Origin: Naegleria gruberi
Taxonomy: Eukaryota
Assembly (NCBI GenBank): GCA_000004985.1
Contig: GG738909.1
Strand: one strand, 5' to 3'
DNA: 64,000 bases
Below the pieces are notes generated by a model. It saw only the letters and a list, made by a program, of their open reading frames with translations, was not told where the DNA came from and ran no database searches. Shown here piece by piece: positions 5,090 through 63,786 of this stretch. The position numbers were made by a program, and so were the translations under genes. Within the stretch, counting starts at the first letter, position 1, and every line of letters begins with the position of its first letter.

Positions 5090-7816
5090 ATGCAAATGCT
5101 TCACATTTTGATAATAAGCGTTTTCCTCACGTTGTTGACACCAGCCATATGTCAATTTATTCCACCTGATATTGAAGTCAAACCTATTATTACTGGCCTA
5201 AAGGGACCCTCTTCACTCTTTTACCAACACGACAGTCTCTTCATCCTAGCAACTAATCAACAAATTCTACTCAAGACAGACTTTCAATCAAAGCCAAACA
5301 TTATTCTTGGCATTAACAACACTTTTGGATACAATGGAGATGGAAAACTTGCAAAGGACACCACTTTAAGTAATCCTCACGGTTTACATGTGAATGGCTC
5401 GTTCATTTATATTCCAGATAAATGGAGTCAGCGCTTGAGAATGGTCAACAAGGAAACAATGATTGTTCAAACAATTGCTGGAAATGGAATCTGTGGTTTC
5501 AGTGGTGATGGACAAAAAGTTGGAGTGCCAAATACACAATTGTGTAATCCACAAGGAGTTTTTGTGGAGAAAAATGAGATTTATATTGCAGATACTTTCA
5601 ACAATAGAATTAGAAAGATAGATTCGAATAATTTTCTTTCGACTGTTGTAGGGTCTAGCTCAATTGGTGGGTTTTCAGGGGATGGAGGTCTAGCAACAAA
5701 CGCCAAACTCTTTAGACCTGAATCTGTATTTGTGTATATGAATCAAGGCCAAACTGATATATTGATTGCCGACACTTTTAATAATAGAATCAGATTAGTC
5801 AAGAATGGTATAACCTCAACAATAGCAGGCGGAAATACCCAAGGATACAATGGAGATGGTATTCTTGCTAAAGATGCGTATCTATGTCAACCTAGCTCTG
5901 TATTTGTTACAACAGTTGGTGAAAGTCTTATTGCTGATTATTGTAATCACAAAATTAGAAGAATTTTCACAAATGGAACGATAACTAGTTTACCAATACA
6001 GGTCAGATATCCAAAATCCATTTTTCTTGATCAAACAAATGGCAATCTTTACATCTCTGAATTGGTTGATGGGACAGTTCAACAAGTGACATTTTACTGT
6101 AAAGAAGGATACAAATTGAATGATTTTCTTGTATGTGAACCTGTTTGCCAACAATCATGCAATACGAAAGGTAAATGTTTGGCTCCTGATGTTTGTGAAT
6201 GTCAGGACAGATACTATGGTGAGTTCTGTGAGGAGTTTACATGTTTTGGAATCTCAAAGGATCATCCAATGGTTTGTTCTGGACATGGATCTTGTATTTC
6301 TCCTGATTCATGTGAATGTGAAGTTAATTACTTTAACAGTAACTGCTCAGCAACTTCTTGCTTTGGAAAGAACTCAACCGAGCCATCTGTTTGCAATTCA
6401 CATGGTAAATGCACTTTATTCAACACATGTAAATGTGAATTCAACAAATATGGTGGCAATGAGTGTGAAATTCCTCTATGCAATGGAAAAAACTCTTCAG
6501 ATCCCAATGCATGCTCTGGTAATGGATTCTGTAGCACTGTCGTTTCTCCCGCTTCATGCATTTGCACTCGAGATATGAGTGGAGCATATGTAGGATCTGA
6601 TTGTCAATACCCAACCTGTATTTCAATCCCCTCTTACGAACCGAGAGTTTGCAGTGGAAATGGTCGTTGCTATGGATTTAATTTGTGTGAATGCAAAGAA
6701 GGATACGAAGGACTGTTTTGTGAATCAGTTACATGTGGAACTGGTTGCAAGATAGCTGCTTCAATTCCTGCGAGCGTTGTAGTCGGAGTTTGTGGTGTTA
6801 TTAGTTTGGTTTTGTTTCTGACGAGAACGAAACTGAAAGAATTTGCTAAAAAGCTCACATATACTGAACTTAAAGATATAGAGATAGTACCTTATCAACA
6901 TTTCTACATTGCTACAGAAGATGAAAAATACGAATACAAACTCAAAAGAATATTAGGAAAGGGAGGATTTGGTAAAATTTATGTTTTTGATGAGATTAGT
7001 GATGGGCAAACCATTGAAGTTGCAGTGAAAATCGTTGAGTCAGTTGATATGTCTGTTCTTAATGAGCCTACAACTATGAGTAGGTTACAACATACCCATA
7101 TTGTACCTATTCGTCGTTTTACAATTGTTGGTGATGGAAAGTATACTTGTTTAATTATGCCACTGTATCTCTGTGATTTGAGAAAGTGGTCTCAAAGCTC
7201 ATTGATGACCATTGAACTGATTATTGAAATTGTTAAGCAAACTGCCTTCAATATCTGCACAATATGAATATGGTCCATAGAGATCTGAAACCAGAAAACA
7301 TACTAGTTGAATCTCCAAATCCTTCACAGGATACGATCATTGATATATCCTCATTCCACTTGCGTGTTGGCGATTGGGGATCAGCCAGATTCGAATCTGT
7401 TGAGACAAGCAATGGTTTCACAGCACAGTACTGCTCACCAGAACATTTTCAAGAAGGAATAACTTCCTGCAACAAGAGTGATATTTGGAGTCTTGGATGT
7501 ATTCTCTATCAATTACTCTCATCAGATTACGAATCGAAACTAAATGTAGTGAAACAAAAAACTCAAAGTGATGAAGACGATAAGGAAATTAGGGAAACAG
7601 TAAGGGGAATGACCAAACTGGATGATTCATTCAAGCTTAATTCCATGTGTGATTTAATGCTAAATATGATCAAGTTCAACCCAGAGGAAAGGTAAGTTTG
7701 CTTTGAATCTAATAATCTTAATCATAATGGATAGAATATCTGCTGATGAAATATTGCACAGATTGAGTACCATTAATAATCAGTCAATGGATATAGCTCA
7801 GAATTCTGGCAATTAA
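5090..7816 (+). CDS. Receptor-type Ser/Thr protein kinase with a signal peptide, NHL-like repeats, Cys-rich EGF-like repeats, a TM helix and a kinase domain. Contains a 1-nt frameshift at about 7237-7245 and an intron at 7692-7734.
   Basis: - Repeated xADTFNNRIRxI units (NHL-like), then multiple CxCxxxxxGxxC EGF-like modules.
- TM segment VVGVCGVISLVLFL.
- Kinase motifs GKGGFGKIY, VAVK, HRDLKPENILV, DWG and SPE.
- The frame switches from 2 to 1 at a run of three A at 7239-7241. Restoring one A gives ...EIVKQNCLQYLHNMNMVHRDLKPEN.
- Donor GTAAGT at 7692, acceptor AG at 7733-7734, last exon 7735-7816 (...FNPEERISADEILHRL*). Confidence 0.7.
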
Positions 7817-24502: not shown

Positions 24503-24622
24503 TTTAAATAAACCTAATTTATTTACTTCGTGTAAAAATGATTAATCTATTATTTGAGCTAGCTCCAATTAGACATTTGCAGCCTATTTATTGGAGAGAT
24601 TCTCAACTTTGTTCATAACATT

Positions 24623-24714
24623 TACTCCAAAGTATTATTTGGAGATAGGTAGGCTTCATAACAGAGCTCAAAATAAATTACTCCAAAGTATTATTTGGAG
24701 ATAGGTAGGCTTCT
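24623..24714. repeat. 36-bp direct repeat (ttactccaaagtattatttggagataggtaggcttc) present twice, 20 bp apart. It spans the stop codon and 3' UTR of cyclase copy 1 and is absent from copy 2.
   Basis: Read directly: 24623-24658 is identical to 24679-24714. The homologous 3' end of the paralog at 53225-53290 carries a single copy. Confidence 0.7.
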
Positions 24715-27700
24715 TGATTGATTGTCAAGGTAATATTATCATTGTTTCTTGTTGGTGTTTTGGGTTCATTCAATGTTTCAAGATTTGCAGAATTTTTCTT
24801 TTGTAAAATGTTTAAACTTGTTCTCAACATGTCAGTGAAGGATGGAACAAGAGCTGGAGTGTGATGTTTCTCATGCAACATGTAAGCAATACATTCACCT
24901 TTTCCTTTCACATTTAAATGTCTTTCTTCAAAAGTGAAACCCAAATCATAAACTCTTTCGTAGGTTGATCTGGAAATTTGAATTCTTCCTGGAATTGAAT
25001 TAGATTCCATTCTTGAAGCTGTATTAATTGTATCTCCCCATAAATCCTATTTAATTAAATATTAAGATGAAGTATTGAAAATGTACATGTTAAAATGTTA
25101 AAATGTTGAAATTAAAAACATACATATGCAAATTTCTTCCTCCCAATAACACCTGCAATAACACTTCCAGTATTAATACCAACACGAATATTAATTTGTT
25201 CAGATGGATGTTTTCCTGATTTTGAATTAAATCTTTGTAAAACATCAAATGTATCAATGGAAAATCTCAAAATTCTTTCAGGATGATCTGATTGTGCATT
25301 CAATCCATGTAATCCACCCACACAAAAATATGAATCTCCAATCGTTTTAATCTTTTCCAAATTATACTTGTCTGTCAAATCATCAAATCCAATTACAATT
25401 TCATTCAACATTTGAACCAATTCAGATGCTTGAATTCCAGTACTCAATTTTGTAAATCCCACCATGTCACTAAAAAAACATGAAACATCATTGAATTTCT
25501 CTGCAATATAAGTTTCTCCTGATTTCAATTTACTTGCTACTGCACTTGGTAAAATATTCAATAATAATTCTTCAGAATGTTTCTTTTCTTCTGTCAATAA
25601 TGAATTATGTTTCTTCTCTGTTGTAATATCCTTAATGAAACAAGTTACAACACTTTGAGAATTGTGAAGAGTGGCAAAAATATTGACACGTGATGGGAAG
25701 CTTGTTTGATTCTTTCTGATACATTCCAATTCAATAGAATCTCCTTTCGAATCACCTCTTGCTGCATTCACCAACATTTCATCAATGAGGTTTTTAATTT
25801 TCGATTGCTCATTCTTTTCAAATAATTGATACAATGATCTTCCAATCGTTTCTGTTTGATTGTATCCAAATATCTTTTGAGCTGCTGGATTGAATATTTC
25901 AATATCAACCTTCTCTCCACTGCACATCACTGCTCCATCTACAGATGCATTCAAAATGCTTCGAACTTTTGAGTCACCTTCCCCTAAATTTGACTTCTTT
26001 TTGAGGAGGGAAGACAATGTATTTGGAATATGGTGATGTACAATGTAATTCTTGATATTTTCATTAGAATCCATTAACTCAATTGATAAATAGTTAAAAA
26101 GAAGACGAAGTTGTTGGACAGAGTTGGCATGTTGATGTAAGGACCAACGAATGGCAAGTGAAATGGAGATAATTGCAATAAATCCAACGAAACTGAATGC
26201 GTAGACAAGTTCTTCATCAGTTATGGCAGCATCTTTTGAAAAAACAGTAGAAAAATCAATCAATTGATCTGAAATGGCTCTGGAAAGATGGAAATGTTTA
26301 ACAAACGTTTCGAACAGCTTCAAGTTATTAATTTTTCCGTTTTCATCCATTAGCTCCATTATTTCATTGGAAATTGTGACGAAATTTGTAATCATATCAT
26401 CAATTCCCATAACGCACGAATGATTACCATCTTCTTTAAACATGTCAGTCAATGTACAATTTTCCTGACCTGCCACGAGTAAATTTACATCATCAAATTT
26501 TCCAAGTATGGTATTTTCTGGATTCTCTCCAATGGATGTTCCATAAATACATAAATTCCAATGGTTTTTCAAGTCACTTGATTTTTCAGTAACATAATGC
26601 TTTGGATTGGATGTAAAATTGTATAAATTAGAAACTCTGAAGAAAGCATCATTGTTGGAGCGAAATCCAGATATAATATACTTCTCAGTGATAAAATTAC
26701 TCAAATATTGAATATCTTCAAAAGTTTGGAATGATTCTTTCATAATAACATAGGATCCGTAACATTGATTCACATTTTGTAAAGTTTCCAATAAGAATAG
26801 CCCACAACAAACTGAAACAATTAGAGAGAGAATAAGAGCCAATACAACTACAACACTCCTTGGATATTTCCAAACACTCTTGACTGGATGAGTTGATGTA
26901 TCATCATTGACTACCTTACTCAATTCATGGAATAATCTTCCTGCATCATTTTTTGAAACATTCTTCTCAATGAGAAGAACTATCTTTGTTATAACAGATA
27001 GATCTAACTTAGAGTAGAATACATAAAGAGATGTATAGAGGAAGTAGACTGTCACAATGATGGAAAAGTAAATGATAAAAGTATTAGTAATTAGTTGAGT
27101 TTCATCCTTTGAACTGGAAACAAAATTCACACAAAAATCAGAATAGGCAGTAACCATTCTCTCGGAATTAAAGTACTGCACATGATTAGAATAAAACTCT
27201 AGAACAACTAACTTACCAATAACATAAAGGGATAACTTGACAGAAAACTCTCTAGGTCTGCTAGTCCAAATTTAGAAATAGTTTCAGAGTGTGTATAGAA
27301 TAAATTTGTAATATCTGCAATAGTGGTATTAGTAGTGGTCGAAATGTTATAAACCTTATCGATTTCTGTTGCTGGCCATGAAGTTGGTAAATTGAAAGTG
27401 TAATAAATTTCATGATATTCAGAGTACATTTCCTGTGTGAATTTTCCGTCATGAACCAATTCTCGCACTGATTTCAAAATGTCCCTGTAAGTATTAATGT
27501 GTTCTAACATTTCTTCATGATAATGTTCCAAAGAAGTATATCCATACTTGGACATGACATTCATCCATTCAACCATTGAGTGATTGTACAAATATGTGAT
27601 TGGTTGAAAAGCTCTCATACTAGACATGATCTGAACAGAGGCGCCAACTGGAGCACAAGCTGTTTCCACTATTTTAACAGTGCCTGAAATATAGGATGAG

Positions 27701-30087
27701 AATGAAACACTCAAAGCCAAACTAACACTCAAAAACAAGATGGAAAATAAGACAAATAGAGAGAAGAGGAAAACTTGGAGAGTGTGTCTGTGTGGAAGGC
27801 TCAGTGAAGTTCTGAATACGTTTTCCTTTCTAAATTCTGGATTATTCTCAATTCCATTGAATTCTGGATTGGTTTCTGCCTCTTTCTGATCGCCATAGAA
27901 TGAACTGCTCTCACTTCTAATGTCGTGTTCCTGGAGATGGATACCAATATTTGGGCCTTCTTGTGTTGGAACTATTCTGTTTTTAAACTTGGACTTTTGA
28001 TTCCTCTTCTTTCTTAATTGAGCATTTCTTTTGGTTTCTTCCTCTTCCAAACTTGATGCTTCAGCATACAGCTCTTGAGCAGCATCCTTATTAAACTTGA
28101 ATTCTTCAATGTATTTGGCAAAATTTCGTAATAAATTCTTGTCATTCTTATAAATTGCCAACATGTTCAAAAACTTGGTTTCACATTCATTGGAAATAAT
28201 TCCCATTCTTACAATGATTGATTCAATCTTATCCCTCAAGACACATTCCTGGAGCATTTCCTTCCAGAACATTCTGTGAAGGGCTTTCAATTCATTTTGT
28301 CTCCTTTCGAGAATGAACATTACTTCACTCATTTCTTCAGTATTTTTGGCATTTGGATTAATTTGATGAACTATAATGTCAACTTCCTTCTGTTTCAAAT
28401 AGATGAGGAATCTATACCATGTATTTGGTCTCTTTTTTATGGCTCTCCTTAAAATTCCTTTGGAAAATGTTGTGGCATTGACATCATTTACGAGACAATT
28501 TGATGCTATAGAACTTGATAAGAGAAGAATATCATTATCGAGTTGTGAGTTGAGTGATGATATACCTCTAACAAGAGAAAGAGACATTTTCAGATTGCTC
28601 AACATATTTGGATTGCTGGAAAGAGTTGGATCTTCTTCATCTGTTGGAATCTTTTCCTTAATGGAGAATTTCAAAAAAAGTTTCAGATAATTCAACTTTT
28701 TGGATTCTAGAAAGTATTGGTAAATATTAATGGAATCCTTCTCGATTGCCTTTTCCAGTAAATCAGGGAAACCATTATTAGATTCATTTCTAATACCTTC
28801 AATTACAATAAATCGAACACTTCTAATCAAAATTCTTGTAATCGCCTCCATTACCATCATTCCAACAAAAAAAGAGATGATAATCATTGCCAAAGTCATT
28901 CCAGCTAGACCAATTCCCAGCACATTATCAACTGACTTGTAAATTGCCGAAAGATTTGGATTATTTACAACGCCACTAATTAGAGAACCAAAACTTGAGA
29001 AGATCCTTGCAGATAACACTCCAACCATAATGGAATTCTCAAATCTCTTAAAATATGGAACGTTTTTCGAAAAACCAATCATTAAACCAATCGAAACTAT
29101 CAAATGCACAATCGATCTGATAAATGCATACTGAGGAGGAATCACATAATGTGAAAGAATTTGGAATTGAGTACAAATCATTGTTCCAATAAGGAAAATT
29201 GGATGATCAGAAGTGAATGGAGAAAAGTGTTGGGGATGACAATTCGTCACAATTAATAGAGAAAAACATGATAATATCATTTGAATGATTATTCCAATAA
29301 TCATGATGGCCATGAAGGCAATATTAATAGTTGAATAACATTCAATGTTCTGGTTTGAATATTGTAAAAAACGGTTGAGAACTGAGACAGAACCAAGATT
29401 ACAATCAAGTGGTGTTGTCAATAGGTAAACAGCTGGAAGAGAAACGAGTAGAAAAAGTTTCGAACCAAGGGCCAAACCTTTCTTTGTCCATTTCAAATAT
29501 TGAGAAGTTGTTTTGTAAGCATACACACTCCAAACCAAGTAAACAATAAATAACAGCTCTACAGCTATAACCACAAACGCTAGAGCCAACGAACCTATAT
29601 AAGGTAACCTTTCGAATGATAAAGTCAAAGGATAGTTCAATACAGAAAAAACCCATGTTCCCCACTCTCCGTATTTCATTTCCATTCCAAGATTTGGCAA
29701 GAATATACCAATCCAAAATACATAAGTATGAAATAGTAAACTAATCAAATAGGAATATAGACCTTCTCTTAATTGTGCCTCTTGCATGAAGAATATAAAA
29801 TCCATAAGTTGATTTCTGAGCTTGATTCCAATCGAAATCTCAGAGCCAGTAATATCTGTTGTTGAATATTTGGAATGTTGGGACGAGAAGGATACATTTG
29901 ATGAGCTAGAGGTATGTTGTCCATGAACTGAGGGAATATTCAGATAACTTGTTGGAGTCGTCTGGTTTCTAGCAACGGTTGACCCACGACGTGAAGTACT
30001 AGCAATAGAGATTGAATCCTCTTCTATGGCAATATTGTTGTTGTTAGTATTATTCAATTGATTTATACTAGCATTGGGATGCAACAT
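24678..30087 (-). CDS. Multi-TM, PAS-domain, class III adenylyl/guanylyl cyclase, copy 1; complement(join(24678..25046, 25124..27175, 27217..30087)), about 1763 aa.
   Basis: - Two clusters of TM helices, a PAS-like segment (ILNASVDGAVMCSGEKVDIEIFNPAAQKIFGYNQTETIGRSLYQLF), then the cyclase domain (FSDMVGFTKL, KIKTIGDSYFCVGGL, DLWGDTINTASRMES).
- Intron 27176-27216 (41 nt, GTAAGT..CAG, phase 0).
- Intron 25047-25123 (77 nt, GTATGT..AG, phase 0) splits FAY|DLWGDT.
- Paralogous to 47986-53257. Confidence 0.8.
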
Positions 30088-30563: not shown

Positions 30564-32405
30564 GTGGAGGAGTGTGATAAAATTTTCAAAGCAATAGATA
30601 AACCAAATTTATATCTTCTAACAACGTTTCTTAAAAAACCAATAGATATGCAAAGGAAAAGGGACTTGTGGAAGCAATTTGATAACATGATTCAGAAAAT
30701 GTCAATTCAACAAAAGAAAAAAACATCAATTCATATTTGTGGAATTTCATCATTAGGGAAATGTGCCAATACAATTTCCAATCGGCAATGGATTATTTCT
30801 ACTTGGTGAAGAGAAAATCTAGCTTTATTGGAGAAGTACACTTTGAATAATTTATTAAATTCGTGCAGTACTTTTGGAACGTGGGAGGCTGAGTTTATAT
30901 TTCGAAACATTGAGGCACGTGACAAGTTTCATTATTCCTGCTACATCAAAGCTGGATGCACCACAAAAGAATCTGCTTTAAAGCTGGAAGAATTAATTAT
31001 TAATAGTGGATTTTTCAATGATATAATTGTCCAAACAAGCCTCATTTCTATGTTCTCCAAGTGTGGGTTATTAGAAAGGTCTATTGAACTGTTCAACAGC
31101 ATGGAGAAGAAACCAACAGCAAGATGGAATGCAATGCTTTCCGCATACGCACATCACTCTCTTTACAATGAAGTACTACTGTTATTCAGCGAGATGGAGG
31201 AATCTTCAATTGAGACGGACAAGCAAACTTTTAGCTATGCTATTCTAGCCCTATCGAGTCTTGGAAAATCTCACTATCATGCACTAATCAAGGGATGTAT
31301 TAACAGTTCGAATTTCTCAAGCTTTGAATGTTTTAGAGCTGATGAAAAGAAAGCGAATTCCACTAAGCTCTCGAATATTTATATCACTCATGAATGAATG
31401 CATCAAAAGTGGTATTTTGTATGATGCAAAAGTTTTACATCAAGAAATTGTTGAAAATCTACCTTCTTTTTTGTCTGATCCCTTTCTGGTAGTGTCATTA
31501 ATTAATATGCTTGGTTGTTTCAATCAGTCCCAGGCAGTATTGGATGTTTTTGGTGGGTACAATGGACAAGATGTGGCCGTGTTAAATGTTACATTGTCAG
31601 CTCTTTACAAGGATGGTTTAATTCATAATGCTCTCAATCTATTCTATGAAAATACGAAAAATTACAAGTTTGATGAAAAAACATTTACAATTATTTTAAC
31701 AATGTGCAAAGACATGCAAAACGACGATAGTGTAAAGGGTCAACAATATTTTGAAATGATGAAACAATATGAAGTTGAACCAAATATCTTCCATTATACA
31801 TGTCTTATCAAGTGTTTTCTCTCAGAAAAGCAATTTGAAAGGGCTCTGGATATTCTCTTTGATATTCATTTGAAAGGAATTCTAATTGATGATGCTTGCT
31901 TTAACTCTTCCGGGGGGTCTCTTTAAATCATGATCATTATGAAAATTACAATGGAATTGCATCAAATAATCATCACGATGAAGGAAACTTTTCATTCTTC
32001 TTTTATTGATTTCTGTGCCCAGTACAGTATGAGAGAATTGGCTGGTAGAGTTCACATATAATGAAAGATTTTGGACATAAACCAAATATACAACTCTTCA
32101 ATATGCTAAATATGTACTTGAATGTTGGAAATTTTGAAAAAGCTCTAGAACTGTATAAAGAATTAAGAAATCAAGCCAATATTATCACTTGCAACATTCT
32201 CATATCTGGATTAACTTTGAATGGGCAGGGTAAAGAAGCTATTAGGATATTCAAAGAAATGAATATAGCCCCTAATGGCACCACATTTGCTGCAGTGTTG
32301 AATGCATGTAGTCATTGTGGATTAATTAAGGAAGGATTTCAAATCTATGAAAGTATGCAAACAAATCATGGTATTGAACCAGATGGTCGGACTTTTAATG
32401 TTTGA
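30564..32405 (+). pseudogene. Plant-type PLS-class pentatricopeptide repeat (PPR) gene, degraded: in-frame TGA, at least two frameshifts and a C-terminal truncation.
   Basis: - PLS-style repeats: LISMFSKCGLLERSIELFNSMEKKPTARWNAMLSAYAHHSLYNEVLLLFSEMEESSIETDKQTFSYAILAL and ITCNILISGLTLNGQGKEAIRIFKEMNIAPNGTTFAAVLNACSHCGLIKEGFQIYESMQTNHGIEPDGRTFN.
- In-frame TGA at 30807-30809.
- Frame-3 to frame-1 shift at about 31311-31320, and a further shift between 31926 and 32061.
- The ORF ends at 32405, where the duplicated coiled-coil segment begins, with no E/DYW extension. Confidence 0.6.
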
Positions 32406-32430
32406 CAACCAACCTACATTAAAAGTTATT

Positions 32431-33898
32431 GTAACCTTACAAAAAAACTATTATTGGAGAGATGGTGAACTTTGCTATTGTGGTAATTTCCCGCACTTTC
32501 TATTTTCATTTTTCAACAACAAAAAAAACAAATCAAACAATTATTTAAATAATAATCTAAAACAATTGATAAGAAAGAAAATGTGTACTAATAATAATAA
32601 TAATAATACTCTCACTGGTAAATTAATCATGAGAAAGAACAAGGAAGAAAGTATTGAAAAGGTTTTCCAATTAATTAATTTCGGAGGCTTGAATGAATCT
32701 GTTAGAGAATTTGTTCAAGATTTGTCATCTGCTACTTCTTCTGATGAAGTGTTATTATCCACTTTCAAGATCAAGGCTATTGTTCCATCTTCTGAGAAGA
32801 GAAAAACAATTTATATAATTAATAATGAAAATGATTTTTCTGAAATGATGAAATTAATTCAAGAAATTCCACAAGATAAACCAATTCTTTTCAGAGTAAT
32901 GAAGAAGAAATTGAATCATGAAAAGAAGGAAAGAAAGGAAAAGAAAGAAAGAAAGGTCAAACTTCAATTGACTGAAGAACAATCTCAAAGTCTTTCCGAA
33001 AAGAAGCAACAAGTTGAATTATTGAAAGATGAAATTAAGATGAAGAAGGAACAAATCAAGACTATCAAATTTGAAATGAAATCTTTGAGAAAGTCATTCC
33101 ATCATGTCAATGTTAGCATTGACTCAAATGTTCCATCTACTATTAAGTCATCTCCAAACAAGGAAGAAAGACTTAAACTCAAACTTGAAAAGAAGGAAGA
33201 AAAGAAAGCTTTCAAATTGGAAAAGAAGTTACTCAAAGCTCAATACAAGCTTGAAAAGATTGCATTGAAGAAGCAAAGAAAGCAACAAGGAAATACTTCT
33301 ACTCAACCAGAAACTGTTTCAACTACCACAACTTCTAGTGAACCAACTGTTCCAATTAACGTACCTATTGTTGAACCAGTAATTGTTACTGTACCACCAG
33401 TTCAACAAGTAACAACTGAACCAGTTTCCAACAATGATGAGATTGTCACTCCAACTGTTGATGCAAGGCTCTTGTTGAAACTCCAAAAAAAGGAACAAAA
33501 GCATGCTTTGAAAATGGAAAAGAAACTTGAAAAACAAATAATCAAAGCTCAAAGAAAATTGGAGAAACAAGGTCAAAAGCAAGAGAGAAAGGAAAGAAAA
33601 TTGTTAGAAAAGCAACAAGTTACCACTCCTTCTCAAAATTAATATTAGTTTAGAATAATTTTAACAACTATCATCAGAGAACTATTCATCAATCGTAATT
33701 TCTCCCTCCACATTTGTTGTGTCTGAGAGAATGAATTGTGAAATAGATTTTACTGAGATAGTTTAATTGCACCAGTCAATCATGATATAGCTGGATTTAA
33801 GGATCATGAAACAAATCTAAACAATATCTTGTAAATAACAAAATAAATCAATGTTACACAATTGTATGGCAAGTTTTCTATTTATTGTGGGACTATTG
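32431..33898. repeat. Segmental duplicate B, left arm. The inverted partner is 62227-63690, at about 95-97% nucleotide identity.
   Basis: Partial aligned comparison of the 5' flank, coding sequence and 3' flank. The coiled-coil proteins differ at about 16 of 355 residues, plus a poly-Asn length difference (N6 vs N8). Confidence 0.8.
32581..33642 (+). CDS. Lys/Glu-rich coiled-coil protein, copy 1 (353 aa).
   Basis: ATG at 32581. Poly-Asn tract, a globular N-terminal region and long K/E-rich heptad-like repeats (KLEKKEEKKAFKLEKKLLKAQYKLEK...). A nearly identical inverted copy lies at 62488-63555. Confidence 0.6.
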   Translation: MCTNNNNNNTLTGKLIMRKNKEESIEKVFQLINFGGLNESVREFVQDLSSATSSDEVLLSTFKIKAIVPSSEKRKTIYIINNENDFSEMMKLIQEIPQDKPILFRVMKKKLNHEKKERKEKKERKVKLQLTEEQSQSLSEKKQQVELLKDEIKMKKEQIKTIKFEMKSLRKSFHHVNVSIDSNVPSTIKSSPNKEERLKLKLEKKEEKKAFKLEKKLLKAQYKLEKIALKKQRKQQGNTSTQPETVSTTTTSSEPTVPINVPIVEPVIVTVPPVQQVTTEPVSNNDEIVTPTVDARLLLKLQKKEQKHALKMEKKLEKQIIKAQRKLEKQGQKQERKERKLLEKQQVTTPSQN

Positions 33899-33998
33899 TA
33901 AATATGACAATGTACCAAAGGTTAGTTTAAAAAAAAGAAAACAAAGGTAAAGAAAAAGGAGTGAATACATTTATATTTCACACTTTAAGAAATTGAAT

Positions 33999-34119
33999 GG
34001 CTACGGCCATATCACGATGAATGCACCTCATCCCGTCCGATTTGAGAAGTTAAGCATCGTCGAGCCACATCAGTACTGAGGTTGGAGACAACTTGGGAAC
34101 CTGTGGTGCTGTAGTCTTT
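33999..34119 (+). rRNA. 5S: 5S ribosomal RNA gene (solitary).
   Basis: GGCTACGGCCATATCACGATGAATGCACCTCATCCCGTCCGATTTGAGAAGTTAAGCATCGTCGAGCC...GGGAACCTGTGGTGCTGTAGTC matches the universal eukaryotic 5S pattern (GCCTACGGCCATACC...CCCGTCCGATCTG..GAAGTTAAGC...GGGAA...GGTGCTGTAGGC). About 120 nt. Confidence 0.85.
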
Positions 34120-41972: not shown

Positions 41973-42044
41973 TCCCGTGTAGTCCAATGGCTAGGATACC
42001 TGGCTTTCACCCAGGAGGTCCGGGTTCAATTCCCGGCATGGGAG
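41973..42044 (+). tRNA. tRNA-Glu (anticodon TTC).
   Basis: TCCCGTGTAGTCCAATGGCTAGGATACCTGGCTTTCACCCAGGAGGTCCGGGTTCAATTCCCGGCATGGGA folds as a cloverleaf. The 7-bp acceptor stem has one G-U pair and the anticodon loop is CTTTCAC. No encoded CCA. T-runs follow at 42051-42060. Confidence 0.85.
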
Positions 42045-47985: not shown

Positions 47986-50900
47986 ATGACATCTCTCAAT
48001 GTTAATGTGTTTGACGATAGAGGTTCAAACAGTTCTCAAAGTAATTCGAGGGTGCTGCTCTCTCCACCTCAGGGAGCCAACAATTACTTACTAATTCCAA
48101 CCAGTAACTATGCAGGATCATCAGTATGTTCCTCTGACAGACATTCCAAAACTGACATTTCAGGTTCTGAAGTTAATGCGGTAACAAAACTGAAGAACTC
48201 GACTTTGGAGTTTGTACTCTTCATACAAGACAACCAAGTGAAGGAGGGAATCTATGGTTATGTGATAACCTTGTTGATTCACTTGTACATGTTTTGGATT
48301 GGAATTTTTCTACCAAATCTTGGACCAGAAATGATGTACGGAGATTGGGGAACATGGATTTTCTCAGTACTCAACTATGCTATTACTCTCTCATTTGAAA
48401 GGATCCCTTATAAGGGAGGTATTGTATTGGCTTTTATTGGAGTAGGTATTGTATTGGTATTTGTAATTCTATTGATCTGGACAATCTTTGCCTACAAGAC
48501 AACCTCCCAACATTTAAAGAACTCGAGAAGAGCTATTGCCATCTTTTCCAAAGTATTTCCATTCATATCAGTACCTCTCTTGTACTTGATGACATTCTCT
48601 CTTGATTGTAATTATACAGTAAGCTCATCAAATCTGAATAGATTTGAATTCTATTCCCATGAGGTGATCCAATGCCACGATACTAGCAATATTATATTTG
48701 TGGTGGTAATGATCTTGGCCATCCTGTTATTGATTATACTCAATGTATTCTCCATGCTCATTGTACCAAACTGCCATCCTCAAAATATAGCTCCATTTGT
48801 GACCGATAATCCAGTTTTCATGAGCTTGTTAGTTGCCTTCAATCTGTGGCAACTCTTTTTACACTTTATCATTCCAACACAATACTCTTTTATGAGAGCT
48901 ATTGTTCATAGTGTTGGATCTATTATTTTAATTATAATTTTTGCCAAGCTGATTCCATTCATTAGAAGAATTGAGAATAGTATTGTATTTGGTTGCCTGT
49001 TGGCTAGATTAGCTTCGAGTATTGGAGCTATTGTAACTTCTATTGTAAATAACCCATCCCTATCAAAGATACTGCCATCGGTGGATAATACACTTGGTGT
49101 TGGACTTGCAGGTCTAACTATTGGTTTGATTATTATTGGTTTTGTGCTTGGTTTCTCCCTTATGGAATTGTATACGAGATTTATTGTGAGATCTATTAGA
49201 AACTTTGTTCTGGAATGTATTCAATCAGATAATGATGAAACAAATCTAGATTCCAAAGAAACTGAAAAATACATTGAGAAAGAAGCACAAATTATTTATC
49301 AACAGTTGGTTGAGTCAAGAAAATTAAGGCACCTTAGAATATTCTTTAAATTTTCTATGAAATTCAAAGAAAAATATCCAACGGAAAAATCAGAAACGCC
49401 CACACAGCACAATCTACTCGATATTTATATTTGTATTGCTCTGATTAAGGGGTTCTCTTCCAATAACCAATTAGATAATGAGATTATCCTTCTCTCTAGT
49501 ATGATTATTGCAAATTATTTGCCAAACGAGGTCAATTCTACAACATTTGCTCAAGGACTTTTGAAGAAAGCTTTTAAAAGAAGACCATCCACTTACTATA
49601 ATTTATTAATTAGTCTAGCTCAAAAACAAGTAGAAGCAACGGTCTATCAAACCAATCCAGAGAGCAGAAACAATGTTGAAATGGCCAAGCTTATTGGTCA
49701 CTTAGAAAGAAGACAGGATGAATTACGAGCACTTCACAGAGCTTTCTGGAAGGAAATCATGCAAGAAAATATCAATCATGAAAAATGTGAATCTATTATT
49801 GTAAGGATTGGGATATTGTCTCATGAATGTGAAACTAAATTCAAGAATTTAATGCACATTTACAAAAACGACAAGACAGTTCTTCGATGTGTTGCTAAAT
49901 ATGTAGAATCTTTTAAATTCAATAAGGAAGCTGCTCAGGAATTATATTCTGAAGCAACAACAATTGAAGAAGAGGATTCCAAACGAATGAATGCCTCCTC
50001 TAAAAGAAGAATTAAAAAGAACCAAAAGAACAGAGTGCATCCTCAACAAATCAGTCACGCTTTTGAGACGTTATCTTATGGTGATGCTAATCATCATGAG
50101 GTAGAGTCCACTGTTGTAGGAGATTTGAATAACGATTTTGGTGGTGTTGAGAATAATCCAGAATTGAAGAAGGAGCTTCTGTTCAGGAATGCATTGGCCA
50201 TCTCACATAAGAATCATTCACATCTCACAATGTTTTTCATTTTCATTGTGCTATCCTTGCTAATTTTGGTTTCAACATTAGTAATGAGCTTGATGTTTTC
50301 GAATTATGTTACTGAGAGCGTACTTGTTGTGGATACTGCCTGTACACCGATTGCATCTGCTATTCGAATTGTTAGTGGAACAAGAAGTTATCAGAGCTCT
50401 CTATTGTTGTACAGTTCCAATTCATCAGCTTGGCCTTCATTATTGGCAGAATATGGCTACTCGAGCCTTTCTGAATTCAAGAAAGCTCACAAGAAAGAGC
50501 TAAGGGATAATATTGATTACTTAATTCTATTGAAAGAGCTAGCACAAACAGCCAAGTTTACCACTGATATGTACTCTGAATTTCATGAATACTACTATAG
50601 CTTTAATCAACCAAAGGCAAATACTAATGGTTTGGAAAAGATTTACAACTCTACCACAGCTATCAATATTACCATTGCAGATATTACTAATTTGGCTATA
50701 ACCTATTCAGAGCAGATTTACAAATTTGAAGATGAGGATTATCTACATACTTTCAGCAGTTATCCTTTCATGATACTATTCAACAATAGGAATATTATGA
50801 CAGCAGCTTATTCTTCATTCTGTTACAAATTTGTTGAGGAATCCAAGAGCTATACCAAGACGATTTCCAATACTTTTATTATTTACTACTCTTGCTCAAT

Positions 50901-53257
50901 TGTTGTTTATTTTACTTACACTGCTATTTATTTGTGCTTTGCAAGATTGGATTTGTCTTTTTTGAAAAAGCTTATTGTTTTATTGGAAAAGAATGTGTCA
51001 AAGCATGAAGCAGGAAAAATGTATCACAATTTGGGCAAGCTAGTCCAAGATGACAGCTCTGTAAGACCGGCCAAGAACTCTGCTTTATACCCTAGGAATG
51101 TTGTGGTAGGATTGGGAATTGTGACAGCAATCTGTGTTGCACTCTGTGCTGGTTTGTTCCTAGCTCAAACTCTCAGCAATTCTCAATACAGCTTTGAGTC
51201 CTATGTCACCATGAGGGATGCTTTCAATGCATTAGAAAACTCCCAATATATTGCAGAAGCGATAACTGAGGAATTCATTAATTTAAAAATTGCTGACAAA
51301 ACATTTATTAATGGATTGGTTTCATCTAATACTGAGCGTTCTGAATCTATTCAAGCATCAATTAAGAAATTAAGATTCTATTGGAATATGTGCATGTATG
51401 GGTCTAATTATTACCCAGATGAGACTCTTGTGATTGGTCTTTTCGAAAAGACTGATTTGATGATAAAGGGAGAAGCTAATTGTACATTTGAAAAGATGAT
51501 TTCACATAATTGCAGCATTGGTGTTGATAAATTGATCACAACTTACACGACTAAAGCCACACAACTCACAGAAGATATTGATCTCAAATCAACAACATTT
51601 GAATCATTATTTGATGACTATTTGGTAGTTAGTTTTTTCTCTACCTATGTAAGCAATTCATTACTGTCATTTTCAGATGTATTTGCTATGGCTGCCTCTG
51701 TTCCATCAGACAAGTTGGTGATTCCATTTGCCATTCTTGGATTTTTGACTTTGTTTATATTCTCGATTGGTATTTACATGTCAATGGGAAAGTATTTCAA
51801 TTCAGTCCAACAACTGCGTCTTCTTTTCAATTATCTACCTCTAGACTTGATGGACTCAAACGAAAATATTAAGAATTATATTGTACATCATCATCTTCCT
51901 GACTCATTCTCAAACATTTTTAGAAGAAAGAAAGGTTCTTCATCAGAGGGCGACTCAAAAGTTCGAAGCATTTTGAACGCATCTGTAGATGGAGCAGTGA
52001 TGTGCAGTGGAGAGAAGGTTGATATTGAAATATTCAATCCAGCAGCTCAAAAGATATTTGGATATAATCAAACAGAAACGATTGGCAGATCATTGTATCA
52101 ATTATTTGAAAAGAATGAGCAATCGAAAATTAAAAACCTCATTGATGAAATGTTAGTGAATGCAGCAAGAGGTGATTCGAAAGGAGATTCTATTGAATTG
52201 GAATGTATCAGAAAGAATCAAACAAGCTTCCCATCACGTGTCAATATTTTTGCCACTCTTCACAATTCTCAAAGTGTTGTCACTTGTTTCATTAAGGATA
52301 TTACAACAGAGAAGAAGCATAATTCATTATTGACAGAAGAAAAGAAACATTCTGAAGAATTATTATTGAATATTTTACCAAGTGCAGTGGCAAGTAAATT
52401 GAAATCAGGAGAAACTTATATTGCAGAGAAATTCAATGATGTTTCATGTTTTTTTAGTGACATGGTTGGATTTACAAAATTAAGTACTGGAATTCAAGCA
52501 TCTGAATTGGTTCAAATGTTGAATGAAATTGTAATTGGATTTGATGATTTGACAGACAAATATAATTTGGAAAAGATTAAAACGATTGGAGATTCATATT
52601 TTTGTGTGGGTGGATTACATGGATTAAATGCACAATCAGATCATCCTGAAAGAATTTTGAGATTTTCCATTGATACATTTGATGTTTTACAAAGATTTAA
52701 TTCAAAATCAGGAAAACAACCATCTGAACAAATTAATATTCGTGTTGGTATTAATACTGGAAGTGTTATTGCAGGTGTTATTGGGAGGAAGAAATTTGCC
52801 TATGTATGTTTTTAATTTCAACATTTTAACATTTTATTGTGTAAATTGTACATTTTCAATATTTCATATTAATATATTAATTAAATAGGATTTATGGGGA
52901 GATACAATTAATACAGCTTCAAGAATGGAATCTAATTCAATTCCAGGAAGAATTCAAATTTCCAGATCAACCTATGAAAGAGTTTATGATTTGGGTTTCA
53001 CTTTTGAAGAAAGACATTTAAATGTGAAAGGAAAGGGTGAATGTATTGCTTACATGTTGCATGAGAAACATCACACTCCAGCTCTTGTTCCATCCTTCAC
53101 TGACATGTTGAGAACAAGTTTAAACATTTTACAAAAGAAAAATTCTGCAAATCTTGAAACATTGAATGAACCCAAAACACCAACAAGAAACAATGATAAT
53201 ATTACCTTGACAATCAATCAAGAAGCCTACCTATCTCCAAATAATACTTTGGAGTAA
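47986..53257 (+). CDS. Multi-TM, PAS-domain, class III adenylyl/guanylyl cyclase, copy 2; join(47986..52803, 52889..53257), about 1728 aa.
   Basis: Same architecture as copy 1. Intron GTATGT at 52804, acceptor AG at 52887-52888 (85 nt), splitting FAY|DLWGDTINTASRMES. There is no intron at the position of the copy-1 41-nt intron. Confidence 0.8.
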
Positions 53258-53840
53258 TTTATTTTGAGCTCTGTTATGAACAAAGATGAGTTCTAAATGA
53301 AAGACCTCCAGTGAATAGGCTTGCCAAACGAGGTGCAAGATTAAGCAACAAATCCCAAAATGAGAATTGATTGTGTTTACACTCCGTAATTCACATCAGC
53401 GGTGTTGCTCAGTTTGGAAGAAATTCAAATGGTTCATATTGAGATATTTCACTTTGATAGTTTGATAGGGATGAGTATATTCTGTATTGACTTAATAAAT
53501 TGTAGTTAACCATCAGTTTACTTCACAATAAAGATGTGTAAGTGTATTAATGTCTCTTGTATCAAAAACGACCTGAGAGACCACACTTTTCGGCATTTAA
53601 GGACTCTGTGCAACATTTGAATGATTTGGGTTAAGATTGAGTGCCTAAAGTAGGCAGTTTACTTCACATAATACGCACTTCTAGTTGCTTTCATGTGTTT
53701 CAGAGTAATAAGACGGTGCCATTTTCTGTTGTTCCAACTAAAGAATTTTTCACCACTGTCACATGCAAACCGCCCTCTATGAGAAAACTAATCTTATCAT
53801 ACGTAATTAGTCAACCAATTACTTTCCATCTCATAAAAAA

Positions 53841-62226: not shown

Positions 62227-63690
62227 CAATAGTCTCACAATAAATAGAAAACTTGCCATACAATTGTGTAACATTGATTTATTTTGTTATTTACAAGATA
62301 TTGTTTAGATTTGTTTCATGATCCTTAAATCCAGCTATATCATGATTGACTGGTGCAATTAAAATATCTCAGTAAAATCTATTTCACAATTCATTCTCTC
62401 AGACACTACACAACAAATGTGGAGGGAGAAATTATGATTGATGAATACTTCTCTGATGATAGTTGTTAAAATTATTCTAAACTAATATTAATTTTGAGAA
62501 GGAGTGGCAACTTGTTGCTTTTCCAACAATTTTCTTTCCTTTCTCTCTTGCTTTTGAGCTTGTTTTTCCAATTTTCTTTGAGCTTTGATTATTTGCTTTT
62601 CAAGTTTCTTTTCCATTTTCCAAGCATGCTTTTGTTCCTTCTTTTGGAGTTTCAACAAGAGCTTTTCATCAACAGTTGGTGTGACAATATCAGCATTGTT
62701 GGAAACTGGTTCAGTTGATACTTGTTGAACTGGTGGTACAGTAACAATTACTGGTTCAACAATAGGTACGTTAATTGGAACAGTTGGTTCACTATAAGTT
62801 GTGGTAGTTGAAACAGTTTCTGGTTGAGTAGAAGTATTTCCTTGTTGCTTTCTTTGCTTCTTCAATGCAATCTTTTCAAGCTTGTATTGAGCTTTGATCA
62901 ACTTCTTTTCCAATTTAAATGCTTTCTTTTCTTCCTTCTTTTCAAGTTTGAGTTTAAGTCTTTCTTCCTTGTTTGGAGATGACTTAATAGTAGATGGAAC
63001 ATTTGAGTCAATGCTAACATTGACAGGATGGAATGACTTTCTCAAAGATTTCATTTCAAATTTTAGAGTCATGATTTGTTCCTTCTTCATCTTAATTTCA
63101 TCTTTCAATAATTCAATTTGTTGCTTCTTTTCGGAAAGACTTTGAGATTGTTCTTCAGTCAATTGAAGTTTGACCTTTCTTTCTTTCTTTTCCTTTCTTT
63201 CCTTCTTTTCATGATTCAATTTCTTCTTCATTACTCTGAAAAGAATTGGTTTATCTTGTGGAATTTCTTGAATTAATTTCATCATTTCAGAAAAATCATT
63301 TTCATTATTAATTATATAAATTGTTTTTCTCTTCTCAGAAGATGGAACAATAGCCTTGATCTTGAAAGTGGATAATAACACTTCATCAGAAGAAGTAGCA
63401 GATGGTAAATCTTGAACAAATTCTCTAACAGATTCATTCAAGCCTCCGAAATTAATTAATTGGAAAACCTTTTCAATACTTTCTTCCTTGTTCTTTCTCA
63501 TGATTAATTTACCAGTGAGAGTATTATTATTATTATTATTATTATTAGTACACATTTTCTTATCAATTGTTTTAGATTATTTAAATAATTGTTTGATTTG
63601 TTTTTTTTGTTGGTTGAAAAATGAAAATAGAAAGGGTGGGAAATTTTATTTCATTCCACAACAGCAAAGTTCACCATCTCTCCAAAAATA
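62227..63690. repeat. Segmental duplicate B, right arm (inverted partner of 32431-33898).
   Basis: See the left arm. The (ATT)n microsatellite at 63517-63548 is longer than in the left copy. Confidence 0.8.
62488..63555 (-). CDS. Lys/Glu-rich coiled-coil protein, copy 2 (355 aa).
   Basis: Intact ORF, about 95% amino-acid identity to copy 1, poly-N of 8 residues. Confidence 0.6.
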   Translation of the reverse strand: MCTNNNNNNNNTLTGKLIMRKNKEESIEKVFQLINFGGLNESVREFVQDLPSATSSDEVLLSTFKIKAIVPSSEKRKTIYIINNENDFSEMMKLIQEIPQDKPILFRVMKKKLNHEKKERKEKKERKVKLQLTEEQSQSLSEKKQQIELLKDEIKMKKEQIMTLKFEMKSLRKSFHPVNVSIDSNVPSTIKSSPNKEERLKLKLEKKEEKKAFKLEKKLIKAQYKLEKIALKKQRKQQGNTSTQPETVSTTTTYSEPTVPINVPIVEPVIVTVPPVQQVSTEPVSNNADIVTPTVDEKLLLKLQKKEQKHAWKMEKKLEKQIIKAQRKLEKQAQKQERKERKLLEKQQVATPSQN

Positions 63691-63786
63691 GTTTTTTTGT
63701 AAGGTTACAACAACTTAATTAACGCCAATCTTGCTTCACCTTTAATAAAAACAAGAACAAATTTCCAATACTCAACTCTTTCAACT

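What the first reader, a model, noticed from the sequence alone, without database searches (positions are those of the whole stretch)
62227..63690. Second inverted duplicate pair (coiled-coil gene) at about 95-97% identity; the arrangement is inconsistent with a single palindrome
Segment B (32431-33898, plus) and B' (62227-63690, minus) are about 1.46 kb, near-identical and inverted. The cyclase pair A/A' is also inverted.

The orders differ. On the left, the 5' ends of A and B face each other, 2.3 kb apart, with a PPR pseudogene between them. On the right, the 3' ends of A' and B' face each other, 9 kb apart, with four unrelated genes between them. So this is not one block palindrome. It reflects independent duplication and rearrangement events, allelic haplotypes assembled into one contig, or a degenerate-polyploid structure.

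The copies also differ in a coding (AAT)n tract length (N6 vs N8). The left breakpoint of B (about 32431) coincides with the truncation point of the PPR gene.
Basis: seen in the sequence. Interest (0 to 1): 0.55.

Follow-up and report, generated by a model that had tools for sequence, protein, structure and literature searches.

The report
Recent inverted copy of orphan gene
A 1.5-kb piece of the Naegleria gruberi genome that holds one small unannotated coiled-coil gene is present twice in opposite orientation 28 kb apart. It is a real but ordinary recent single-gene duplication, and it sits beside an unrelated gene-conversion patch in two old cyclase genes.

Summary
Window 32423-33898 (+) and 62227-63716 (-) are inverted copies with about 34 substitutions and a few indels. 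Their edges are sharp and their flanks are unrelated. The window is a gap-free stretch of a Naegleria gruberi NEG-M scaffold.

Each copy carries one intact intron-less ORF of 353 or 355 codons. The ORF encodes an N-terminal domain and three long helices. It has no detectable homologue and appears unannotated.

The two repeat pairs cannot form one palindrome: their symmetry centres are 38,967 and 48,070.

The cyclase "pair A/A'" is not a stand-alone duplicate. The two about 1,750-aa TmcB-PAS-cyclase genes are ancient inverted paralogues with saturated dS. Only their last about 1.33 kb has been homogenised (dS 0.058), which is the signature of gene conversion.

B/B' has a similar age (dS 0.050, dN/dS 0.36). 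B' sits tidily between same-strand genes. B abuts a PPR pseudogene cut in mid-motif and lies 100 bp upstream of a 5S rRNA gene, so B is probably the derived copy.

Whether the copy was made from DNA or from RNA is unresolved. Misassembled haplotypes, polyploid remnants, a transposon and a staggered-break inversion all lack support. This is an ordinary finding of low interest.

The parts
62227..63716 (-). B': the right copy of the duplicated unit (1490 bp) and the probable source copy. It comprises about 160 bp of upstream sequence, the ORF, and about 260 bp of downstream sequence.
   Evidence: BLASTN, alignment, edge mapping. It lies 70 bp after the stop of the upstream same-strand ORF (63787) and 178 bp before the ATG of EFC38297 (62048).
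62488..63555 (-). B' ORF, 355 codons, no intron. It encodes an orphan K/E-rich protein with three long helices.
   Evidence: ORF list. AlphaFold2 on the single sequence gives helices 114-174, 196-238 and 295-349 at pLDDT 80-92, with an N-terminal domain below 50. No Pfam family passes threshold. No homologue was found. No exact match was found in the protein collection.
63523..63546 (-). (AAT)8 tract encoding N8 near the N-terminus of B'.
32423..33898 (+). B: the left copy of the duplicated unit (1476 bp) and the probable derived copy. Weak homology (10 of 16 bases) continues to about 33914.
32581..33642 (+). B ORF, 353 codons and intact. It differs from the B' ORF by 10 synonymous and 15 non-synonymous changes and a 6-nt in-frame microsatellite difference.
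   Evidence: dS is 0.050 and dN/dS is 0.36. P = 0.015 against neutrality.
32590..32607 (+). (AAT)6 tract encoding N6.
30828..32422 (+). PLS-type PPR pseudogene or gene fragment. It has no start codon, spans three reading frames, and ends in the middle of a PPR motif at the B junction. The E/DYW tail found in its homologues is absent from the window.
   Evidence: Pfam PPR hits. Three-frame translation and tblastn with an E/DYW consensus. Homologues are 700-800 aa and carry PF20431/PF14432.
33929..33961 (+). A-rich tract (24 of 33 bases are A), 30 nt after the B 3' edge. It may be a decayed poly(A) tail, or it may simply be part of the sequence upstream of the 5S gene.
   Evidence: Only 4 comparable tracts occur elsewhere on the 128 kb of both strands, outside the B and B' coding sequence.
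33999..34117 (+). 5S rRNA gene followed by a T6 terminator, 100 bp downstream of B.
   Evidence: Rfam RF00001, 105 bits, full-length match. Sequence.
24678..30087 (-). cyc1: TmcB-TPR / PAS / class III cyclase gene. My model has 1763 aa with a 41-nt and a 77-nt intron.
24655..25975 (-). A: the recent homogenised tract at the 3' end of cyc1. It covers the last about 406 codons, the intron, and about 25 nt of 3' UTR.
   Evidence: 98.5% identity (20 mismatches in 1321). dS is 0.058 and dN is 0.001. The adjacent 25976-26126 is only 69% identical.
47986..53257 (+). cyc2: the inverted ancient paralogue of cyc1, 1728 aa with an 85-nt intron. Its first 1609 aa match the annotated protein EFC38254 exactly.
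   Evidence: Amino-acid identity to cyc1 is 18-67% over the first about 1320 residues. pS is 0.76, which is saturated.
51949..53280 (+). A': the tract in cyc2 that corresponds to A.

Best explanation
The B/B' pair is a real and evolutionarily recent dispersed duplication of one complete small gene unit (about 1.48 kb: leader, a 353/355-codon ORF for an orphan helical protein, and trailer) in the Naegleria gruberi nuclear genome.

The right copy B' is most likely the source. It sits in a normal head-to-tail gene array. The left copy B is most likely the derived one. It was pasted in inverted orientation 28 kb away, at a damaged site between a truncated PPR pseudogene and a 5S rRNA gene. The event probably happened during repair of a chromosome break, using B' as an ectopic template. 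An RNA-mediated route is the main alternative for this step.

Both ORFs are still intact and show mild purifying selection. A nearly mutation-free 424-nt stretch suggests the two copies have since exchanged sequence again.

The neighbouring 'pair' A/A' is a different kind of event of similar age. It is a roughly 1.33-kb gene-conversion tract that homogenised the PAS-cyclase 3' ends of two ancient, inverted, otherwise highly diverged cyclase paralogues.

The two pairs are therefore independent local recombination products. They are not arms of a palindrome, not haplotigs, and not polyploid remnants.

Shown: the existence, extent and edges of both pairs; the mosaic dS pattern; the truncated PPR gene; the 5S gene; the orphan status of the ORF. 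Inferred: the direction B' to B; the break-repair mechanism; the later conversion between B and B'.
For: - Self-BLASTN and the alignment define both pairs and their sharp edges.
- There are no Ns in the window, and exact protein matches place it on a 250-kb N. gruberi scaffold.
- cyc1 and cyc2 align over their full length at 18-67% amino-acid identity, with pS 0.76. Identity then jumps to about 100% for the last 406 codons, with 14 synonymous and 1 non-synonymous difference and dS 0.058.
- The B ORFs have dS 0.050 (95% CI 0.023-0.089) and dN/dS 0.36, with P = 0.015 against neutrality.
- The PPR frame ends in mid-motif 18 nt before the B edge. No E/DYW tail exists anywhere in the window, although the homologues carry one.
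- B' is flanked by same-strand ORFs at 70 bp and 178 bp.
- A 5S rRNA gene lies 100 bp from the B edge.
- The stretch 32589-33012 has only 2 adjacent mismatches in 424 nt, against about 3% elsewhere in the repeat.
- tblastx finds no other paralogy between the arms.
Against: - The direction of copying could not be polarised because no outgroup sequence was available. Several of the more radical amino-acid differences (W, Y, M, P) are in B'.
- No clear microhomology or filler pattern was found at the junctions.
- The missing 3' part of the PPR gene requires an accompanying deletion, or an earlier, unrelated truncation.
- The A tract runs past the stop codon into sequence where ancient paralogues should share little homology. 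It continues weakly beyond a 43-bp insertion. This is slightly untidy for a classical two-ended conversion.
- The near-equal size and age of the two tracts is left as coincidence.
- Read-level evidence for the assembly was not available.
Confidence: 0.7

Rival explanations
1. B is a processed retrocopy. A full-length B' mRNA was reverse-transcribed by a non-LTR retrotransposon enzyme and inserted about 30-100 bp upstream of the RNA polymerase III-transcribed 5S rRNA gene. On this reading the duplication edges are the start and the poly(A) site of the B' transcript.
For: - The unit is exactly one gene with leader and trailer and contains nothing of its neighbours.
- An A-rich tract (24 of 33 bases) lies on the correct strand 30 nt after the 3' edge of B and is absent at B'. 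Such tracts are rare: 4 others on 128 kb of both strands.
- A TATA-like TTTATTAAA sits about 23-31 nt upstream of the B' 5' edge.
- The insertion lies next to a Pol III gene. From general knowledge, this recalls the tRNA/5S-targeted elements of Dictyostelium and yeast.
Against: - The A-rich tract is separated from the end of homology by 14-30 unrelated nucleotides.
- The candidate target-site duplication (TACATTAA / TACATTTA) is no better than at 24% of random sites.
- Neither copy has an intron, so the hallmark test of intron loss is uninformative.
- Simple retro-insertion does not explain the missing 3' part of the PPR gene.
- Only 70 bp would separate the proposed B' transcript start from the upstream gene's stop codon.
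- No reverse transcriptase is encoded in the window, and the presence of active LINEs in N. gruberi was not verified.
Confidence: 0.25
2. The pair is an assembly artefact. Two alleles (haplotypes) of one locus, or a chimeric join, were placed in one contig by the assembler.
For: The copies differ by about 2-3%, which could be an allelic level in a heterozygous strain. The assembly is an older Sanger draft. Both repeat pairs in the window have similar length and divergence.
Against: - The window has no gap.
- Each copy is joined on both sides to unique, gene-bearing sequence with base-pair-sharp edges.
- The copies are inverted and only 1.5 kb long. Haplotigs would duplicate their neighbours as well.
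- A chimeric clone would give identical copies, not diverged ones.
- The A and A' tracts are each embedded in-frame in different, fully diverged genes.
Confidence: 0.05
3. Both pairs are remnants of one larger inverted segmental duplication, of an ancient polyploid block later scrambled, or of an inversion made by staggered breaks, which leaves inverted duplicates at its ends.
For: The order A ... B ... A' ... B' is interleaved, as the staggered-break model predicts (p q' ... p' q). The older cyclase paralogy is collinear around one centre at about 39.0 kb. The two tracts have similar dS.
Against: - The symmetry centres differ by 9 kb.
- A and B are 6.3 kb apart and A' and B' are 8.9 kb apart. 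The staggered-break model requires them to be adjacent.
- No 3' half of the PPR gene lies next to B'.
- No other gene between or beside the arms has a partner.
- The cyclase paralogy is saturated at synonymous sites, whereas B/B' is recent.
Confidence: 0.04
4. B/B' is an old duplicate pair kept similar over its whole length by repeated gene conversion. On this reading the low divergence does not date the duplication.
For: Divergence along the unit is uneven: 0.5% in 32589-33012 against 3-4% elsewhere. This shows that at least one later exchange is plausible. The neighbouring cyclases demonstrate that conversion operates in this region.
Against: No decayed homology is visible beyond either edge. 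The cyclase tract, by contrast, has a 69%-identical shoulder. Conversion cannot create homology past the limits of the original duplicate, so the unit would still have to be a 1.5-kb single-gene duplication.
Confidence: 0.12

Closest known systems
Interlocus (ectopic) gene conversion between inverted paralogues, as in concerted evolution of gene-family members and of palindrome arms
   Same: The A/A' tract shows an abrupt switch from saturated synonymous divergence to dS 0.058. The tract is about 1.3 kb long. It lies inside two full-length paralogues in inverted orientation 26 kb apart.
   Different: Only one tract is seen, and there is no large palindrome. The 3' end of the tract runs slightly beyond the coding region. 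Donor and recipient are unknown.
Small dispersed single-gene segmental duplication by ectopic templated break repair
   Same: The unit is a discrete 1.5-kb copy with sharp edges. It is inserted at a site that also suffered a loss (the truncated PPR gene). It is on the same chromosome, nearby, in either orientation.
   Different: No diagnostic junction microhomology or filler DNA was found, so the mechanism is inferred only.
Processed retrogenes, and Pol III-gene-targeted retroelement insertion (Dictyostelium TRE elements, yeast Ty1/Ty3; from general knowledge)
   Same: The unit is one whole transcription unit. An A-rich tract follows its 3' end. It lies about 30-100 bp upstream of a 5S rRNA gene.
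   Different: There is no significant target-site duplication. The tail is not contiguous with the end of homology. Intron loss cannot be tested. No reverse transcriptase was shown.
Inverted-repeat-mediated inversion substrates, such as the int22h repeats in human F8 (from general knowledge)
   Same: Two interleaved pairs of about 1.3-1.5-kb inverted repeats at 97-98.5% identity could in principle flip the 26-kb and 28-kb segments between them without breaking genes.
   Different: No evidence of alternative orientations is available. This is a prediction only.

Membership tests
Single block palindrome / large inverted segmental duplication | All repeat pairs share one symmetry axis, and the arms are collinear | tested here: not met
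   The centres are 38,967 for A/A' and for the weaker cyclase matches, and 48,070 for B/B'. There are no other partner genes.
Gene-conversion tract between paralogues (A/A') | A near-identical tract embedded in much more diverged paralogous sequence, with an abrupt change in synonymous divergence | tested here: met
   pS is 0.76 upstream against dS 0.058 in the last 406 codons. The shoulder is 69% identical.
Gene-conversion tract between paralogues (A/A') | Both tract ends lie within pre-existing homology | tested here: inconclusive
   The 5' end lies in a conserved coding block. The 3' end lies about 25 nt past the stop codon, followed by a 43-bp insertion and about 40 nt of weak similarity.
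Processed retrocopy (B) | Introns of the parent are absent from the copy | tested here: inconclusive
   The two copies are collinear, and neither has an intron-sized gap.
Processed retrocopy (B) | Poly(A) tail directly at the 3' end of homology | tested here: inconclusive
   An A-rich tract (24 of 33 bases) is present at 33929-33961, but it lies 14-30 nt beyond the end of homology.
Processed retrocopy (B) | Target-site duplication flanking the insert | tested here: not met
   The best candidate is 8 bp with 1 mismatch. An equal or better match occurs at 24% of random sites.
Processed retrocopy (B) | The 5' edge equals the transcription start of the parent, and a reverse-transcriptase source exists in the genome | not testable with these tools
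   No transcript data and no whole-genome access for N. gruberi were available. The window has no RT domain.
Haplotig / misassembly | Duplicated flanks, a gap or contig end at the join, and single-copy read depth | tested here: not met
   There are no Ns. The flanks are unrelated, at 35-45% identity. Read depth could not be tested.
Inversion by staggered breaks with inverted duplications at the breakpoints | The two duplicates are adjacent at each breakpoint, and the broken gene's other half lies at the other breakpoint | tested here: not met
   A to B is 6.3 kb and A' to B' is 8.9 kb. No PPR or E/DYW remnant lies near B'.
DNA transposon / MITE / Helitron-type mobile unit | Terminal inverted repeats or other element termini, a transposase, and multiple copies | tested here: not met
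   There are no terminal inverted repeats at the unit ends. The ORF has no Pfam family. Only two copies occur in the window. Genome-wide copy number could not be tested.
PLS-class PPR protein with E/DYW tail (the gene abutting B) | PPR repeats followed by E and DYW domains | tested here: not met
   PPR repeats are present. The frame ends in mid-motif and no E/DYW is found in the window. Homologues carry PF20431/PF14432. This indicates a truncated pseudogene.
5S ribosomal RNA | Full-length match to the covariance model above the gathering score, followed by a Pol III T-run terminator | tested here: met
   RF00001 scores 105.4 bits against a gathering score of 38, over model positions 1-120 of 120. 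TTTTTT follows the gene.

The most novel reading that the evidence does not exclude
B is a retrocopy of the B' mRNA that was inserted about 30 bp upstream of a 5S rRNA gene. That would point to a retrotransposition machinery in Heterolobosea that targets RNA polymerase III genes, as in Dictyostelium and yeast, and that can also mobilise cellular mRNAs. In addition, the two interleaved inverted-repeat pairs would make this 40-kb region a switchable structure with four isomers.
Probability: 0.1. Interest if true: 0.45.

Novelty: new member of a known kind. Interest (0 to 1): 0.2.

Why it matters
The main value is for annotation and for assessing the assembly of the N. gruberi reference.
- It documents two copies of an apparently unannotated orphan gene.
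- It shows that the annotated cyclase model EFC38254 lacks its last exon.
- It identifies a decayed PPR pseudogene and a 5S rRNA gene.
- It shows that short-tract gene conversion acts on the very large Naegleria cyclase family. This matters for anyone building trees or dating duplications in that family.
- It predicts that the region could exist in inverted isomers, which long-read assemblies should check.

It does not reveal a new kind of genetic system.

Tried and rejected
- Homology searches for the B' protein all returned nothing: the word-indexed search, the exhaustive phmmer against 1.84 billion representatives, the metagenome and viral contig scans, PDB sequences (best E = 0.23), and Pfam (only DUF6474 below its cutoff).
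- Exact look-ups of six alternative B/B' gene models found nothing. One model wrongly started at codon 2; this was corrected.
- Attempts to obtain orthologous loci failed. The look-up of encoding contigs has no record of EFC38297 or EFC38254. A homologue search with EFC38297 returned nothing, not even its own cluster, so that tool's negative results should be read with care.
- The single-sequence AlphaFold2 model has low confidence outside the helices. No fold search was run because the matches would have been meaningless.
- The target-site duplication test was not significant.
- A short-word BLAST of the junction sequences found no filler origin.
- The surroundings of the tRNA-Glu gene show no comparable insertion.
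- The N. gruberi genome paper is not held in the library. Published heterozygosity figures therefore could not be cited.
- The staggered-break inversion, single palindrome, polyploid block, transposon and haplotig readings were considered and rejected, as set out above.

Full report
**Source of the window.** Three ORFs of the window are exact matches to GenBank proteins of Naegleria gruberi: EFC38246, EFC38254 and EFC38297. All three are on one 250,472-bp scaffold. The window is 33-34% G+C and contains no N, so it is one uninterrupted contig. The surrounding ORFs are ordinary cellular genes: alpha-adaptin, a riboflavin transporter, kelch, PAP2, ELMO, a Zn-cluster protein, an ion channel, G-alpha and kinases. 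No transposase or reverse transcriptase is present.

- A BLASTN self-comparison finds exactly two strong repeats, and both are inverted.
  - B is 32423-33898 and B' is 63716-62227: 95.9% identity over 1497 columns, with 34 mismatches.
  - A is 24655-26126 and A' is 53280-51798: 95.2% identity.
- Outside both edges of B, identity falls at once to the 35-45% expected for unrelated AT-rich DNA.
- The edges were mapped to 32423/63716 and 33898/62227. About 16 nt of weak similarity (10 of 16 bases) lies beyond the 3' edge.
- The N6 versus N8 (AAT)n difference is real.
'2.3 kb' is the distance from B to the 5' end of the whole cyclase gene. The near-identical segment A is 6.3 kb from B.

**What the unit contains.**
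- Each copy has about 160 bp of leader, one intron-less ORF (353 codons in B at 32581-33642; 355 codons in B' at 62488-63555), and about 256 bp of trailer.
- The protein is K/E-rich and has an internal degenerate repeat with a 99-aa period.
- A single-sequence AlphaFold2 model gives three long confident helices (114-174, 196-238, 295-349) after a low-confidence alpha/beta N-terminal region. 'Coiled-coil gene' is a fair label.
- No Pfam family passes threshold. No homologue appears in any of the four searches, nor among PDB sequences.
- None of six plausible gene models is present in the 15-billion-protein collection that does hold the neighbouring N. gruberi proteins. The ORF therefore appears to be an unannotated, lineage-restricted orphan.
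- The ORF is very likely a real gene. A 355-codon ORF in 33% G+C DNA is not expected by chance. Both copies keep it open despite 25 substitutions. The substitutions are biased towards synonymous changes: 10 synonymous against 15 non-synonymous, dN/dS 0.36, P = 0.015 against neutrality.

**The other pair is something different.**
- tblastx and a protein alignment of my gene models show that the two cyclase genes are paralogous along their entire length.
  - cyc1 is on the minus strand at 30087-24678 and encodes 1763 aa.
  - cyc2 is on the plus strand at 47986-53257 and encodes 1728 aa.
  - Both have TmcB-type TPR, PAS and class III cyclase domains.
- Over the first about 1320 residues they share only 18-67% amino-acid identity. 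Synonymous sites are saturated (pS 0.76, dN 0.51).
- From alignment codon 1372 to the stop (406 codons) there are 14 synonymous differences and 1 non-synonymous difference: dS 0.058, dN 0.001.
- The truly recent tract is 24655-25975 against 51949-53280, at 98.5% identity.
- The additional 150 bp reported by BLAST is a 69%-identical conserved shoulder of the old paralogy.
- The short intron is retained in both copies (77 and 85 nt). A cDNA intermediate is therefore excluded.
- This mosaic is the textbook signature of interlocus gene conversion between old inverted paralogues. It is not a 1.47-kb duplication.
- The weaker cyclase matches share the symmetry centre of A/A' at about 39.0 kb. B/B' is centred at 48.07 kb.

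**Which B copy is derived.**
- B' lies in a head-to-tail array of minus-strand genes. It is 70 bp after the stop of the upstream ORF and 178 bp before the ATG of EFC38297.
- B lies directly after a PLS-class PPR sequence. That sequence has no start codon and changes frame twice. It stops at 32403-32405 in the middle of a PPR motif ('...HGIEPDGRTFNV*'), 18 nt before the junction.
- The downstream residues up to the junction still fit the next motif's Y-x-K spacing.
- Its homologues are 700-800-aa proteins that continue into E and DYW domains. No such sequence exists anywhere in the window.
- The left site therefore shows damage, and the left copy is the more likely newcomer.
- The direction could not be polarised formally because no outgroup could be obtained.

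**How the copy was made.** Two routes remain open.

(i) DNA-level ectopic templated repair of a break, with loss of the 3' half of the PPR gene.
- This accounts for the truncation and needs nothing not already seen in the region, since conversion is demonstrably active next door.
- It has no positive junction signature.

(ii) Retroposition of the B' mRNA.
- Rfam finds a full-length 5S rRNA gene at 33999-34117, 100 bp downstream of B, with a T6 terminator.
- An A-rich tract (24 of 33 bases) lies at 33929-33961 on the sense strand of B. There is no counterpart at B'. Such tracts are rare in the window.
- A TATA-like motif lies about 30 nt upstream of the B' 5' edge.
- The unit is exactly one transcription unit.
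- Against this route: the tract is not contiguous with the end of homology; the candidate target-site duplication is not significant (24% of random sites); intron loss cannot be tested; and the route does not explain the missing PPR half.

I rate the DNA route somewhat more likely and retroposition at about 0.25.

**Age, and later exchange between the copies.**
- The synonymous divergence of the two tracts is indistinguishable: B 0.050 (CI 0.023-0.089) and A 0.056-0.058 (CI 0.030-0.093).
- I treat this as coincidence, or as a reflection of a common regime of homogenisation. The two left-hand tracts are separated by 6.3 kb of unaffected sequence.
- Within B, the stretch 32589-33012 has only two adjacent mismatches in 424 nt, against about 3% in the rest of the unit.
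- This hints at a later, shorter conversion between B and B'. The window was chosen after seeing the data, so this is only a suggestion.

**Rejected readings.**
- Haplotig or chimera: there is no gap, the flanks are unique on all four sides, the orientation is inverted, and the copies are diverged rather than identical.
- Polyploid or segmental block: no other partner genes exist.
- Staggered-break inversion: this model predicts the interleaved order seen here, but it requires the duplicates to be adjacent and the other PPR half to lie next to B'. Neither holds.
- Transposon: no terminal repeats and no transposase.

**Comparison with known phenomena, and verdict.**
- Everything seen belongs to well-known classes: short-tract ectopic gene conversion between paralogues, and small dispersed single-gene duplication (possibly a retrogene).
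- The specific instance is new only in that the gene is an unannotated orphan and the locus has not been described.
- Two interleaved inverted-repeat pairs at 97-98.5% identity could mediate inversions of the 26-kb and 28-kb intervals without disrupting genes. This is a testable prediction and is not shown here.
- Interest is low (0.2). The most novel surviving reading is Pol III-gene-targeted retroposition of a cellular mRNA in a heterolobosean. It has roughly a 10% chance.

Noticed in passing
window 33999-34117 (+): A full-length 5S rRNA gene (Rfam, 105 bits) with a T6 terminator. It lies 100 bp downstream of copy B and 260 bp upstream of the ATG of an ELMO-domain gene. It is the only 5S gene in the window.
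   Followed up: partly
window 41973-42044 (+): A tRNA-Glu(TTC) gene, found by both Rfam and ARAGORN. Nothing unusual was seen in its flanks.
   Followed up: partly
window 47986-53257 (+): The GenBank/JGI model EFC38254 (1609 aa) ends at an in-frame stop just inside an 85-nt GT...AG intron (about 52804-52888). It therefore omits the last exon (119 aa) and cuts the cyclase domain at profile position 126 of 183. The spliced model is 1728 aa.
   Followed up: yes
window 27167-27207 (-): cyc1 needs removal of a 41-nt GTAAGT...CAG segment to stay in frame. Removing it restores a gap-free alignment with cyc2, which has no intron at that position. This is either an unusually short intron or a disabling insertion. 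I did not check whether cyc1 is annotated as one gene.
   Followed up: partly
window about 24612-24654 (-): The 3' UTR of cyc1 carries a 43-bp insertion that largely repeats the last coding bases and the start of the UTR (GCCTACC...GGAGTAAATGTTATGAA). cyc2 lacks it. Weak homology resumes for about 40 nt beyond the insertion.
   Followed up: partly
window 30828-32422 (+): An apparently unannotated PLS-class PPR pseudogene. Its best homologues are plant, fern and Balamuthia PPR-E/DYW proteins at 22-26% identity.
   Followed up: partly
window 6212-6736 (+): Internal tandem EGF-like repeats in a teneurin-like NHL/EGF receptor kinase ORF (5090-7267). This is the only other self-similarity in the window.
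   Followed up: no
tool behaviour: The homologue search with EFC38297 returned no hit at all, not even its own cluster, although the protein is in the collection. Negative results from that word-indexed search are therefore weak evidence.
   Followed up: no
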